Shown here one piece after another: positions 17,617 to 60,143 of a DNA stretch of 64,000 bases. Every line of letters begins with the position of its first letter. Position 1 is the first letter of the stretch. Below the pieces are notes generated by a model. It was not told the origin of the DNA and made no database searches. It saw only the letters and a list, made by a program, of their open reading frames with translations. The DNA comes from Escherichia phage RB14: sequence record NC_012638.1; one strand, 5' to 3'. The translations under genes and the position numbers were made by a program.

Positions 17617-17973
17617 TTAACCTCTATTCATAAAAGCATTAAAAATTTGGTCATCAATAGACGGTGCAGTAATATTTTCTGCATCATTTAGCAAATCATT
17701 AATTTCATCAGATAGCATAACACATGTACCTTTATTTCCTGTAATTGTTACTGCGCAATTACGAACGTTTTCTTTATTAAATTTTAGGTTAATATTTTCG
17801 TAATGAAAATCCTTTAATGCTGAATATATTTTTAAAATAAAATTATCTTTTACTACAATAAACCCAACCTCACTATTAAAACGCGGTTCATGGAAACTGT
17901 AATAAACCTTTTCATCTATAAAATCGTATGAAATTTTTTCCATTTTTAAATATGAAAATTCAGAACTATACAT
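17617..17973 (-). CDS. hypothetical protein at the 61.2 position, 118 aa
   Basis: ORF table; position between primase and spackle. Confidence 0.5.
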   Translation of the reverse strand: MYSSEFSYLKMEKISYDFIDEKVYYSFHEPRFNSEVGFIVVKDNFILKIYSALKDFHYENINLKFNKENVRNCAVTITGNKGTCVMLSDEINDLLNDAENITAPSIDDQIFNAFMNRG

Positions 17974-56792: not shown

Positions 56793-57374
56793 CTAACCGA
56801 GCTTTTTAGTTAATTCATTCCAATGTTTTCTACACAAAGAAACATAAATTTCATCACCAATACAGATTTGATTACCTTCTTTAACTGGTGTTCCATCTTC
56901 CATTAATCGAGCTGTCATAATCGCTTTTTTACCGCAATGACAAACTGCTTTTAGTTCAATAAGTTTATCTGCAATCGCTAAAAGTTCTTTAGAACCTTCA
57001 AACAATTTTCCAGCGAAATCAGTCCTTAATCCATAAGCCATAACAGGAACATTATATGTATCAACAATTCGGCTCAATTGATGCACTTGTTCAGTTTTTA
57101 AAAACTGAGCTTCATCTACAAATACGCAATGAATATCTTTTTGTGCTTCAGCCCATTTATAGAACTCGAAAATATCCATATCATCTGTAATAATATTCGC
57201 TTCCTGCTTAATTCCAATGCGAGAAACAACTTCACAGACAGAATCGCGAGTATCAATAGCAGGCTTAAGAACTAATACACTCATTCCACGTTCTTTATAA
57301 TTATGTGCAGCAGTCAAAAGAGAAGCAGATTTTCCAGCATTCATTGCTGCATAAGTAAAAATTAAACTCGCCAT
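56793..57374 (-). CDS. tk: thymidine kinase, 193 aa
   Basis: Walker A MNAGKS and zinc-ribbon CHCGKK; 193 aa as T4. Confidence 0.9.
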   Translation of the reverse strand: MASLIFTYAAMNAGKSASLLTAAHNYKERGMSVLVLKPAIDTRDSVCEVVSRIGIKQEANIITDDMDIFEFYKWAEAQKDIHCVFVDEAQFLKTEQVHQLSRIVDTYNVPVMAYGLRTDFAGKLFEGSKELLAIADKLIELKAVCHCGKKAIMTARLMEDGTPVKEGNQICIGDEIYVSLCRKHWNELTKKLG

Positions 57375-57564: not shown

Positions 57565-57746
57565 AAAGAATTTATATAATCAATGAGTTCTTGTTCTTTA
57601 TTATCGAATTCTTTAGAAAGTTCTTCGTATTCATTTGCATTAAAAGGACCGCATTCATCACAAACTTTTTCCAATTCACTGTTTTTATCCATAACTTCGT
57701 GGATAAGAGAAAAGAGTTTGTCTTTTTGTTCTTTGCTTAAACTCAT
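57561..57746 (-). CDS. small helical protein family member, 61 aa
   Basis: N-terminus MSLSKEQKDKLFSLI. Confidence 0.5.
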   Translation of the reverse strand: MSLSKEQKDKLFSLIHEVMDKNSELEKVCDECGPFNANEYEELSKEFDNKEQELIDYINSL

Positions 57747-57916
57747 ATATTAATTTCCAAAAGTTTTAAAATAATTCGCTTTTGCTTAAATATTTCCACA
57801 GTTAAATGATCAGTATCTTTTTGACCAATTCCAATGGCAAAACCTTTATTAACAGCGAGTTCAATTAAATTATCAAGTTCACGTAACACTTCATATTGTA
57901 ACTCAGAACTATTCAT
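57743..57916 (-). CDS. small protein, 57 aa (not in ORF table)
   Basis: my translation MNSSELQYEVLRELDNLIELAVNKGF...; ATGA overlaps at both ends. Confidence 0.4.
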   Translation of the reverse strand: MNSSELQYEVLRELDNLIELAVNKGFAIGIGQKDTDHLTVEIFKQKRIILKLLEINI

Positions 57917-58125
57917 TTCGGTTTACCTTCTTTAACGAAATCTGGATAAGGATAAAATCCCGAATAAAATCCTTCACCTTTATGATTGATACATCCTTTA
58001 TTAGAACAATAGCACCAATAATCGAAATCACAAGCCATTTCATCGTTGCATAAAGCAAAAACAACCGGCCATTTACACTTTTCACAGTGGGCATTTTTAA
58101 GAATACTAGTTTGGCTCATAACCAT
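57913..58125 (-). CDS. Cys-rich small protein, 70 aa
   Basis: about ten cysteines including CEKCKW and CYCSNKGC. Confidence 0.5.
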   Translation of the reverse strand: MVMSQTSILKNAHCEKCKWPVVFALCNDEMACDFDYWCYCSNKGCINHKGEGFYSGFYPYPDFVKEGKPK

Positions 58126-58343
58126 GTCACCTTTAAGCAGTATTCTTCTACATGCTGTTTACGACCTTTCTTATCAATAAAGGTATATTCAACGAATGTT
58201 CCAATGTAGTCTTTATCTACATCGTGTGGACTATTAATTGGACATTTAGTACGGCAAATGCGTTCCCATTGACGAATAATTACTGCCTTATTCTTTGGGT
58301 CATACGGATGTGGATAATGTATATTCATAATAATGGTTCCCAA
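58116..58343 (-). CDS. hypothetical protein, 70-75 aa
   Basis: ORF table. Confidence 0.45.
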   Translation of the reverse strand: MGTIIMNIHYPHPYDPKNKAVIIRQWERICRTKCPINSPHDVDKDYIGTFVEYTFIDKKGRKQHVEEYCLKVTWL

Positions 58344-58792
58344 TCAACAATCACAATTTCTAATTTAGAGGAATACGTATCTAAAATATCTTCAATAATA
58401 TCCCAGTTCCCTTTACCTATGCCTGCACCAATCCTAGGCATATAGATTGTAGGTTTAATTAGTTTATTTTCACCAAACTCATTTAATTCTAACATACAAT
58501 TCATTAAAGCGGAATACTCAAAATTTGGCCCTGGTTGAAATTGAGTATAAAGGTTGAAGCAATACGCTTTATGAGTCCTAAAGTATTTTTCATAGACTGA
58601 ATAAGAACCGAGTTTAGTTACATCACCCCATTCAGTCTGTAATTTATCAGCTTCCAAAATTTTAGGGAAAGCTTTGGTTAATTGACCCGCTACGCCTGAA
58701 CCCATAGTATGAAAACAATTGCATCCATGCGCAATATTTTTACCTTCAGCGAAAAGGGCGACAATATCGCCCTTGATATATTTTACAATCAT
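58325..58792 (-). CDS. macrodomain protein of TARG1/OARD1 type (putative ADP-ribose hydrolase), 155 aa
   Basis: motifs YIKGDI, AHGCNCFHTMGSGVAGQL and MPRIGAGIGKGNW line up with human TARG1 (YVKGDLF, AHCISEDCRMGAGIAV, MPRIGCGLDRLQW) as I recall it. Confidence 0.65.
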   Translation of the reverse strand: MIVKYIKGDIVALFAEGKNIAHGCNCFHTMGSGVAGQLTKAFPKILEADKLQTEWGDVTKLGSYSVYEKYFRTHKAYCFNLYTQFQPGPNFEYSALMNCMLELNEFGENKLIKPTIYMPRIGAGIGKGNWDIIEDILDTYSSKLEIVIVDWEPLL

Positions 58793-59136
58793 CTAGTACT
58801 CAATCCTCGATTATAAGAATCTACCAAACGGTCAACCATTGAATGACAAGCGGCTTTATCTTTCTCCTCCGCAACTGAACATTCTAAAGTATTCCACTTT
58901 TTAGCATATCGTTTTAACAATGTATAGTTTTTGTATCTGCTTGATTTATCCCTTTCTCCGTCTTTATATGCATATATTAATTTCTGTGCAAATTCAGCTT
59001 GACATGCTTTATTTTTCCCACAATAATCTGCCGCAGTGCGGTTTACATATTCTCTAATTTCAGTATATGATGTATCTGCTGACGCAGAAGCAGAAAATGA
59101 AATTAATCCTATACATAAAACCAAAATTTTAGTCAT
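58789..59136 (-). CDS. secreted/periplasmic protein, 115 aa
   Basis: N-terminal signal peptide MTKILVLCIGLISFSASASA; four cysteines in the mature part. Confidence 0.55.
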   Translation of the reverse strand: MTKILVLCIGLISFSASASADTSYTEIREYVNRTAADYCGKNKACQAEFAQKLIYAYKDGERDKSSRYKNYTLLKRYAKKWNTLECSVAEEKDKAACHSMVDRLVDSYNRGLSTR

Positions 59137-59681: not shown

Positions 59682-60143
59682 TCATTGAGTTTTAATTACT
59701 GCTTTAGAAGCCTTTCCTGGTAAACGACGACTGTTGATAATTGCCATCCTACATTGAAGTGACGGGTCTTTGAACTTCTCATTAGGTTTACAAACCGTAA
59801 ATCCAAGCCAAAGATTTCCATCTGTGATTTCTAAACGTCCAGGACGATATTCAACCCCATCAATAAAATCCTCGTCAATGTCAGGACGCGGAGGCATACT
59901 CAGAAATTCATTAACTTCTAAAACATGGTCTTTTATTTTATGGAATAATTCAAAAACGTATGTCTCATCAATCTCCCGTTGAATTGCGCGATCAAGAAGA
60001 TGCTGAGAATATTTTAGATGAAACGATGAGACCCCTGCTGCTTTTGATGCCTCACGAATCTCATTGTTAATTTGACGAAACTCCGACTCAAAGTGACGAC
60101 GAAGCTTATTTCGACGGATAAAAACTTCTGTATTGATAGTCAT
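59682..60143 (-). CDS. regB: RegB endoribonuclease, 153 aa
   Basis: 153 aa as T4 RegB; position between the tk and e regions. Confidence 0.85.
   Translation of the reverse strand: MTINTEVFIRRNKLRRHFESEFRQINNEIREASKAAGVSSFHLKYSQHLLDRAIQREIDETYVFELFHKIKDHVLEVNEFLSMPPRPDIDEDFIDGVEYRPGRLEITDGNLWLGFTVCKPNEKFKDPSLQCRMAIINSRRLPGKASKAVIKTQ

What the first reader, a model, noticed from the sequence alone, without database searches (positions are those of the whole stretch)
58325..58792. Free-standing TARG1/OARD1-type macrodomain gene between tk and regB
The 155-aa product carries the hallmark motifs of the TARG1/OARD1 macrodomain class, the same class as the DarG antitoxin macrodomain, which removes ADP-ribose from protein glutamates and from DarT-modified thymidine in ssDNA. 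This phage also encodes the ADP-ribosyltransferases ModA and ModB. A phage macrodomain could therefore reverse host DarT-type DNA ADP-ribosylation (an anti-defence role) or edit phage-installed ADP-ribosylation. By my count this region (tk to regB) holds more ORFs than the T4 equivalent, so the gene may be accessory, but I cannot confirm whether T4 has a homologue.
Basis: partly seen in the sequence, partly recalled or inferred. Interest (0 to 1): 0.75.

Follow-up and report, generated by a model that had tools for sequence, protein, structure and literature searches.

The report
T4 tk.4/adfM anti-DarT2 macrodomain gene
This is the well-conserved T-even phage gene tk.4, recently named adfM, a small ADP-ribose-removing enzyme that T4 needs to grow on bacteria carrying the DarTG2 defence system, so the finding is real but already known.

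Summary
The ORF is real: 58325..58792 on the minus strand, 155 aa, lying between vs and tk.3 in the regB-to-tk gene run. It is a macrodomain (Pfam Macro above the gathering score; AlphaFold2 pLDDT 95; best structural matches TARG1, BT1257, Poa1p, DarG).

It is not accessory. It is 154/155 identical to T4 Tk.4 at the same position. The extra ORFs relative to T4 are two small ORFs between tk.2 and tk.3.

A November 2025 preprint found tk.4 as the only T4 transposon-screen hit on a DarTG2 host, confirmed by a clean knockout, and named it adfM. The T4 protein has not been tested biochemically.

One refinement: the TARG1 Lys84/Asp125 dyad and DarG Lys80 are absent. The position holds Gln84, invariant in 260/260 relatives. 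That matches SCO6735, a thymidine-ADP-ribose DNA hydrolase whose Gln85 is essential.

PhiKZ gp104, also called AdfM, is a different, DarG-like, Lys-type lineage.

Reversal of ModA/ModB marks is unlikely.

Novelty: already known. Interest is low to moderate.

The parts
58325..58792 (-). tk.4 / adfM coding sequence: a 155-aa free-standing ALC1-like macrodomain
   Evidence: ORF. It is 154/155 identical to T4 NP_049723. Pfam Macro. AlphaFold2 pLDDT 95.4. Foldseek top matches are TARG1, BT1257, Poa1p and DarG.
58688..58729 (-). Codons 22-35, H-G-C-N25-C-F-H-T-M-G-S-G33-V-A35. This is ADP-ribose-binding loop 1. It includes Asn25, the equivalent of SCO6735 Asn27 and of the conserved Asn of DarG and PhiKZ AdfM.
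   Evidence: N25 is found in 259/260 family members, G33 in 259/260 and A35 in 260/260. Alignment A2. The role of Asn27 is described in PMC9411070. An Asn mutant of PhiKZ AdfM is impaired.
58541..58555 (-). Codons 80-84, N-L-Y-T-Q84. Gln84 sits at the position of the catalytic Lys84 of TARG1 and Lys80 of DarG, and of the essential Gln85 of SCO6735.
   Evidence: hhalign and hmmsearch alignments. MAFFT alignment A2. Q84 is invariant in 260/260 and Y82 in 260/260.
58403..58438 (-). Codons 119-130, P-R-I-G122-A-G124-I-G126-K-G-N-W130. This is diphosphate-binding loop 2. G124 is the equivalent of SCO6735 Gly128, and G126 sits at the position of TARG1 Asp125.
   Evidence: Position 126 is Ala or Gly in 259/260 members and never Asp.
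58804..58808 (-). GAGGA Shine-Dalgarno sequence, 11 nt upstream of the tk.4 ATG and inside the 3' end of vs
   Evidence: Read directly from the sequence.
58789..59136 (-). Upstream gene vs (valyl-tRNA synthetase modifier). Its TGA stop overlaps the tk.4 ATG (ATGA), which is consistent with translational coupling.
58116..58328 (-). Downstream gene tk.3. Its ATG at 58328 overlaps the tk.4 TGA.
   Evidence: PHROG 2008.

Best explanation
The ORF is the orthologue of bacteriophage T4 tk.4, recently renamed adfM (anti-DarT factor, macrodomain). It encodes a single-domain macrodomain of the ALC1-like class. It sits in the same-strand regB-vs.1-vs-tk.4-tk.3-tk gene run, with start and stop codons overlapping its neighbours. 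Most likely mechanism: when a DarTG2-carrying host releases DarT2, the toxin ADP-ribosylates thymidines in single-stranded phage DNA and blocks replication. Tk.4 binds the ADP-ribose in its cleft (loops 22-35 and 119-130) and hydrolyses the ribose-thymine bond, restoring normal DNA. It does this without the lysine used by DarG and TARG1. Gln84, held in place by Asn25, would position the distal ribose for water-mediated cleavage, as proposed for Streptomyces SCO6735. It lacks DarG's C-terminal DarT-binding domain, so neutralisation should be mainly enzymatic. Shown here: gene identity, fold, class, active-site make-up and conservation. Shown in the literature: the requirement of T4 tk.4 for growth on a DarTG2 host. 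Inferred: the hydrolase activity of this protein, its thymidine-ADP-ribose substrate, and the catalytic role of Gln84 and Asn25.
For: The protein is 154/155 identical to T4 Tk.4 at the syntenic position. tk.4 was the single significant T4 transposon-screen hit on a darTG2 host, and a clean knockout sensitised T4. T4 lacking adfA and adfN stays DarTG2-resistant, which implies another factor. The only NCBIfam and PADLOC matches are to the macrodomain part of DarG. Sequence and fold matches are all to the ALC1-like class: BT1257 8.6e-18, TARG1 3.9e-15, Poa1p 4.5e-14, SCO6735 7.8e-14, Mtb DarG 3.3e-13, and Foldseek TARG1 at 4.4e-10. Gln84 aligns with SCO6735 Gln85, TARG1 Lys84 and DarG Lys80 by three methods. 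Gln84 is invariant in 260/260 relatives and Asn25 in 259/260. SCO6735 cleaves dT-ADP-ribose on DNA, and its Q85A mutant is dead and N27S nearly dead. Another phage macrodomain, PhiKZ gp104, removes DarT2-made ADP-ribose from DNA in vitro. T5 is DarTG2-sensitive and has no such ORF anywhere in its genome.
Against: No biochemical assay of T4 Tk.4 was found; the preprint itself says hydrolysis 'seems likely'. The genetics come from one preprint, one DarTG2 system and special conditions (M9 glucose, 30 C). The SCO6735 lysines Lys34 and Lys89, which position the DNA, are not conserved (Ser32 and Gly88). The SCO6735 mechanism itself rests on molecular dynamics and mutagenesis. The N-terminal half resembles the Poa1p phosphatase (H-x-C-N-C motif). 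Homologues in other phages sit beside NAD salvage and RNA repair genes, which leaves room for a small-molecule substrate.
Confidence: 0.8

Rival explanations
1. It is a small-molecule ADP-ribose-1''-phosphate phosphatase, Poa1p-like. This is the current database label ('phosphatase', 'A1pp'). It would clear by-products of RNA repair or NAD metabolism rather than repair DNA.
For: Poa1p chains match at E 2e-6 with the single sequence and 4.5e-14 with the profile, and give the highest Foldseek TM-scores (0.79-0.82). The N-terminal H-x-C-N-C motif is shared. Homologues in Saclayvirus, Pakpunavirus and Vibrio phages lie in RNA ligase - Prs - Nampt - macro clusters, and next to PseT/RnlA in a KVP40-like phage.
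Against: The label comes from domain homology only. The T4 knockout has a specific DarTG2 phenotype. From my own knowledge, T4 RNA repair (Pnk plus Rnl1) does not go through a 2'-phosphotransferase that would make Appr>p; this was not tested here. By eye on the alignment, the position of Gln84 is Ser in Poa1p and Poa1p Phe152 corresponds to Gly126 here. The gene clusters may simply be counter-defence islands.
Confidence: 0.08
2. It protects mainly without catalysis, by binding and inhibiting DarT2 or by shielding its product.
For: Catalytically dead SCO6735 Q85A, DarG K80A and TARG1 K84A all inhibit DarT in vitro, and SCO6735 does so most strongly. In Tequatrovirus UFV-AREG1 tk.4 is only 57% identical while its flanks are 99-100% identical. 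That kind of allele replacement is expected if surfaces co-evolve with a partner.
Against: The DarT-binding C-terminal domain of DarG is absent. The active-site residues are invariant across 260 relatives, which argues for selection on catalysis. PhiKZ AdfM is catalytic.
Confidence: 0.07
3. It edits ADP-ribosylation installed by the phage's own Alt/ModA/ModB enzymes on host proteins or RNA.
For: ModA and ModB are encoded in the same window. Macro and ART domains often co-occur in phages.
Against: By established knowledge, the T4 ARTs modify arginine, and macrodomains are not known to cleave arginine-ADP-ribose; ARH-type enzymes do that. This was not tested here. The macro family occurs in 2,766 phage records, including Pseudomonas, Vibrio, Acinetobacter and Aeromonas phages. 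ModB homologues occur in 1,009 records, essentially enterobacterial T4-like phages. tk.4 is dispensable on plain K-12.
Confidence: 0.03

Closest known systems
T4 Tk.4 = AdfM (NP_049723; bioRxiv 10.1101/2025.11.20.689424)
   Same: 154/155 identical (D135 here, G135 in T4). Same length, same neighbours (vs upstream, tk.3 downstream), same strand.
   Different: One residue differs. The phage itself is T2/RB18-like, with two extra small ORFs between tk.2 and tk.3.
Streptomyces coelicolor SCO6735 (PDB 5E3B) and Bacteroides BT1257 (PDB 2FG1/2AFC): free-standing Gln-type ALC1-like macrodomains
   Same: Single-domain proteins of about 150 aa. They have Gln at the TARG1-Lys84/DarG-Lys80 position, a conserved Asn in loop 1, G-x-G-(I/L)-(A/G)-G-G-x-W in loop 2, and no Asp at the TARG1-125 position. 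SCO6735 cleaves dT-ADP-ribose on DNA and protects against DarT.
   Different: Only 21-30% identical. The motif is NLYTQ rather than NMIGQHG. SCO6735 Lys34 and Lys89 are not conserved. Asp49 is invariant only in the Tk.4 family. These are cellular proteins, not phage proteins.
DarG antitoxin macrodomain (Thermus aquaticus 5M31/5M3E, M. tuberculosis 5M3I)
   Same: Same class and fold. The only NCBIfam and PADLOC hit. The same biological target is implied: DarT2-made thymidine ADP-ribose.
   Different: Scores 31 bits against the 250-bit equivalog cut-off. No C-terminal DarT-binding domain. No adjacent darT. The catalytic Lys80 is replaced by Gln.
PhiKZ gp104, also named AdfM (PMC13309987)
   Same: A phage-encoded free-standing macrodomain that counters DarTG2. 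It shares the name.
   Different: A separate lineage. gp104 matches Mtb DarG at E 9e-25 and keeps the F-P-T-K lysine. Against Tk.4 it gives only a 23-residue BLASTP match at E 0.004.
Human TARG1/OARD1
   Same: Best Foldseek match (E 4.4e-10, TM 0.71-0.81). Profile E 3.9e-15. The binding loops are shared.
   Different: The catalytic dyad Lys84/Asp125 is replaced by Gln84/Gly126.

Membership tests
Macro domain (Pfam PF01661) | Profile score above the curated gathering threshold | tested here: met
   28.4 bits against a cut-off of 22, covering profile positions 2-117 of 118.
Macro domain (Pfam PF01661) | Alpha/beta macro fold with two glycine-rich ADP-ribose-binding loops | tested here: met
   The AlphaFold2 model has pLDDT 95.4 and six strands. 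The listed top-50 Foldseek PDB matches are macrodomains or designed enzymes apparently built on macrodomain scaffolds. Loop residues G33, A35, P119, G122 and G124 are invariant or nearly so.
T4 Tk.4 / AdfM orthologous group | Near-identity and synteny with T4 tk.4, between vs and tk.3 | tested here: met
   154/155 identical, with the same gene order in T4 and T2.
T4 Tk.4 / AdfM orthologous group | Required for phage growth on a DarTG2 host | not testable with these tools
   Reported for T4 itself by transposon screen and clean knockout. Not tested for this phage.
TARG1/OARD1-type hydrolase | Catalytic Lys84-Asp125 dyad | tested here: not met
   Gln84 and Gly126 sit at those positions by hhalign, hmmsearch and MAFFT. 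Gln is found in 260/260 relatives, and position 126 is never Asp.
TARG1/OARD1-type hydrolase | Membership of the ALC1-like structural class | tested here: met
   The top sequence and fold matches are TARG1, BT1257, SCO6735, Poa1p, DarG and ALC1.
DarG antitoxin (NCBIfam NF048014, PADLOC DarG) | Full-length equivalog score, i.e. macrodomain plus C-terminal DarT-binding domain | tested here: not met
   31.4 bits against a cut-off of 250. Only profile positions 2-147 of 338 are matched. For PADLOC, 2-145 of 329.
DarG antitoxin (NCBIfam NF048014, PADLOC DarG) | Catalytic Lys80 in the N-F-P-T-K motif | tested here: not met
   The motif here is N-L-Y-T-Q.
DarG antitoxin (NCBIfam NF048014, PADLOC DarG) | Operon partner darT | tested here: not met
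   The neighbours are vs and tk.3. The gene is an orphan in a phage genome.
SCO6735/BT1257-type (Gln-type) dT-ADP-ribose hydrolase | Gln at the catalytic-Lys position, supported by the loop-1 Asn and the loop-2 Gly (SCO6735 Gln85, Asn27, Gly128) | tested here: met
   Q84, N25 and G124 align with them and are invariant or nearly so. Their roles are described in PMC9411070.
SCO6735/BT1257-type (Gln-type) dT-ADP-ribose hydrolase | DNA-positioning Lys34 and Lys89 | tested here: not met
   Ser32 and Gly88 sit at those positions.
SCO6735/BT1257-type (Gln-type) dT-ADP-ribose hydrolase | Hydrolysis of thymidine-linked ADP-ribose on ssDNA | not testable with these tools
   Inferred only. No assay of Tk.4 was found.
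Poa1p ADP-ribose-1''-phosphate phosphatase | Residues probed in the solved mutant structures (His23, Ser30, Phe152) | tested here: inconclusive
   By eye on the alignment, His22 corresponds to His23, Thr29 to Ser30, and Gly126 to Phe152. The primary paper is not in the library.

The most novel reading that the evidence does not exclude
T-even AdfM (Tk.4) represents a large clade of lysine-independent, Gln-type thymidine-ADP-ribose DNA glycohydrolases. The family has 18,233 cluster representatives, and all 260 members inspected here carry an invariant N...D49...N-x-Y-T-Q signature. On this reading the clade was not co-opted from DarG but from free-standing ALC1-like macrodomains. Phages would then have acquired anti-DarT2 macrodomains at least twice: Tk.4-type and PhiKZ-type. 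Allele replacement within otherwise identical Tequatroviruses, and recurrent linkage to Nampt/Prs/RNA-ligase genes in other phages, would point to a second layer of function. That layer could be partner-specific interaction or coupling to NAD/ADP-ribose metabolism.
Probability: 0.4. Interest if true: 0.45.

Novelty: already known. Interest (0 to 1): 0.27.

Why it matters
It matters mostly as confirmation. A sequence-only reader arrived at the same function that a transposon screen assigned to T4 tk.4 in late 2025. The added value is mechanistic. The T-even protein lacks the lysine that defines DarG and TARG1 catalysis and carries the glutamine configuration of SCO6735. Work on T4 AdfM should therefore target Gln84 and Asn25 rather than a lysine. 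It also shows that the two phage proteins now called AdfM (T4 Tk.4 and PhiKZ gp104) are different lineages. The family is very widespread (2,766 of 50,697 phage records), so its substrate range bears on how commonly phages erase nucleic-acid ADP-ribosylation.

Tried and rejected
1. 'Accessory gene' is rejected. T4, T2 and T6 all carry it. Megablast record counts are tk.4 646, vs 500 and tk 506.

2. 'Loss of the TARG1 catalytic residues refutes hydrolase function' is rejected. SCO6735 has the same Gln and is active.

3. 'Tk.4 and PhiKZ AdfM are the same family member' is rejected.

4. The half-length PDB query recovered only the SCO6735 loop-2 segment. The full SCO6735 sequence came only by using BT1257 as the query.

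5. The sigma-70 promoter scan of 56.5-60.7 kb found no more sites than shuffles (19 against 17.5), so no promoter is claimed.

6. The Poa1p primary paper could not be found in the library, so the phosphatase rival could be judged only from alignments.

7. The role of the family-specific invariant Asp49 could not be assessed, because model coordinates cannot be inspected with these tools.

8. Papers on CmdTAC and on type II Thoeris were checked for a phage macrodomain link. None was found.

Full report
**Observation.** The window has an ATG-to-TGA ORF at 58325..58792 on the minus strand encoding 155 aa. A GAGGA Shine-Dalgarno lies at 58804-58808. The start codon overlaps the stop of the upstream gene and the stop codon overlaps the start of the downstream gene, ATGA in both cases. 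The minus-strand gene order is regB (59682..60143), vs.1, vs, this ORF, tk.3, two small ORFs, tk.2, tk.1 and tk (56793..57374). The protein passes the Pfam Macro gathering threshold (28.4 against 22 bits) and matches PHROG 335 at E 7e-66.

**Identity.** The 3.5-kb region is 98-99% identical to T2, T6, RB18, RB27, RB32 and many other Tequatroviruses, in which this gene is labelled tk.4, 'phosphatase' or 'macro domain protein'.
- T4 carries tk.4 (468 bp) at the same position between vs and tk.3.
- The proteins are 154/155 identical.
They are 57743..57916 and 57913..58125 between tk.2 and tk.3, exactly as in T2, and belong to PHROGs of unknown function.
- tk.4 was listed as a conserved ORF of six T4-like genomes with an A1pp match in 2006.
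- Megablast finds tk.4 in 646 phage records, against 500 for vs and 506 for tk.

The gene is therefore not accessory.

**What is already known.** A November 2025 preprint (HIDEN-SEQ, 10.1101/2025.11.20.689424) infected a DarTG2-expressing E. coli with a T4 transposon library.
- tk.4 was the single significant hit.
- A clean knockout sensitised T4 to DarTG2.
- The authors named the gene adfM and proposed, without biochemistry, that it removes ADP-ribose from DNA.

This fits the earlier finding that T4 lacking adfA and adfN remains DarTG2-resistant. A Cell Reports 2026 paper independently used the name AdfM for PhiKZ gp104. It showed in vitro removal of DarT2-installed ADP-ribose from DNA and rescue from DarT2 toxicity.

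**Class and active site.** The only NCBIfam and PADLOC matches are to the macrodomain part of DarG, far below the equivalog cut-off because the C-terminal DarT-binding domain is missing. A profile of 58 homologues matches these solved structures:

| Structure | E-value |
|---|---|
| BT1257 | 8.6e-18 |
| TARG1 | 3.9e-15 |
| Poa1p | 4.5e-14 |
| SCO6735 | 7.8e-14 |
| M. tuberculosis DarG | 3.3e-13 |
| T. aquaticus DarG | 4e-11 |

The AlphaFold2 model (pLDDT 95.4) gives the same set by Foldseek, with TARG1 first. All of these belong to the ALC1-like class.

The TARG1 catalytic dyad is absent. hhalign, hmmsearch and MAFFT all place Gln84 at TARG1 Lys84 and DarG Lys80, and Gly126 at TARG1 Asp125. 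My recalled TARG1 sequence was checked against PDB 2LGR and is identical. Across 260 relatives, Gln84 is invariant, Asn25 is found in 259/260, and position 126 is always Ala or Gly.

This is the configuration of SCO6735 (His24, Asn27, Gln85, Gly128; sequence recovered) and of its close homologue BT1257. SCO6735 cleaves thymidine-linked ADP-ribose on DNA and protects against DarT. Its Q85A mutant is dead and N27S nearly so, and a water-mediated mechanism was proposed for it. The residues to test are Gln84 and Asn25.

Two differences from SCO6735 remain. Its DNA-positioning Lys34 and Lys89 are not conserved here. Asp49 is invariant only in the Tk.4 family and is unexplained.

**Two lineages called AdfM.** PhiKZ gp104 matches M. 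tuberculosis DarG at E 9e-25 and keeps the F-P-T-K lysine. Against Tk.4 it gives only a 23-residue BLASTP match at E 0.004. The T-even and PhiKZ proteins are therefore distinct macrodomain lineages with, apparently, the same job.

**Distribution and consistency checks.**
- tblastn finds the Tk.4 family in 2,766 of 50,697 phage records across many host genera.
- An exhaustive profile search finds 18,233 cluster representatives at E <= 1e-3 and 1,226 at E <= 1e-30. Most of the top hits are free-standing proteins of about 150 aa.
- ModA and ModB are present in the window. ModB homologues occur in only 1,009 records, essentially enterobacterial T4-like phages. This, together with the arginine specificity of the T4 ARTs (established knowledge, not tested here), argues against a role in editing phage-installed marks.
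- Phage T5 is DarTG2-sensitive. It has no ORF matching the family profile or a broader ALC1-like profile anywhere in its 121,750 bp. The window has exactly one such ORF.

**Mechanism and confidence.** I consider it most likely (0.8) that this protein hydrolyses DarT2-made thymidine-ADP-ribose on phage ssDNA using a Gln84/Asn25-dependent, lysine-independent active site.
- Shown here: identity with T4 tk.4, fold, class, and active-site make-up and conservation.
- Shown in the literature: the T4 genetic phenotype.
- Inferred: the enzymatic activity, the substrate and the residue roles.

Three rivals remain:
- a Poa1p-like small-molecule phosphatase, supported by the database label, N-terminal similarity and gene neighbourhoods in other phages;
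- non-catalytic DarT2 inhibition, supported by in vitro inhibition by dead SCO6735, DarG and TARG1;
- reversal of phage ART marks.

**Verdict.** The feature is real and correctly recognised, the main interpretation is correct, and it is already known. The new points are modest: the Gln-type active site, the separation from PhiKZ AdfM and DarG, and mosaic allele replacement at tk.4.

Noticed in passing
window 57743-57916 (-) and 57913-58125 (-): Two small ORFs (57 and 70 aa; the second is Cys-rich) lie between tk.2 and tk.3. T4 lacks them and T2 has them. They match PHROG 3452 and PHROG 2306, both of unknown function.
   Followed up: partly
L012 (Escherichia phage UFV-AREG1) 1801-2280, compared with window 58325-58792: There is allele replacement at tk.4. 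In UFV-AREG1 the flanking RegB, Vs.1, Tk and rI proteins are 99-100% identical to the window, but Tk.4 is only 57% identical, Tk.3 73% and Vs 92%. In the more distant JK45 (L013), Tk.4 (84%) and Tk.3 (100%) are more conserved than the flanks (51-82%). All alleles keep the N25 and NLYTQ motifs.
   Followed up: partly
L003 (Acinetobacter phage Liucustia) 798-5474; L005 (Pseudomonas phage PaGz-1) 1-4480; L004 (Vibrio phage Pylo) 1632-7191; L006 (Vibrio phage phi-pp2) 1-4513: Tk.4-family macrodomains in unrelated phages sit in a recurring cluster: RNA ligase - ribose-phosphate pyrophosphokinase - nicotinamide phosphoribosyltransferase - macrodomain. In a KVP40-like phage the cluster is RnlA ... 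PseT - macrodomain. This is either a counter-defence island or a functional link to NAD/ADP-ribose metabolism.
   Followed up: partly
window 17617-17973 (-): The slot of T4 gene 61.2 (adfA, an anti-DarT1 factor in RB69) holds a 118-aa ORF (PHROG 4122). Only its C-terminal part resembles the 208-aa T4 gp61.2: the tblastn match extends beyond the ORF and is 31% identical over 142 aa. This phage therefore carries a divergent, shorter AdfA-position protein.
   Followed up: partly
window 58754-58774 (+): A terminator-like hairpin (AAGGGCGACAATATCGCCCTT followed by a T-rich tail) sits on the plus strand, inside and antisense to the 5' end of tk.4. One related record annotates a terminator here.
   Followed up: no
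window 58646-58648 (-), codon 49 of tk.4: Asp49 is invariant in 259/260 Tk.4-family proteins, but the aligned position is Tyr in DarG, BT1257 and SCO6735 and Leu in TARG1. Its role is unknown and could not be assessed without model coordinates.
   Followed up: no
ModB homologues are found in 1,009 phage records.
   Followed up: yes
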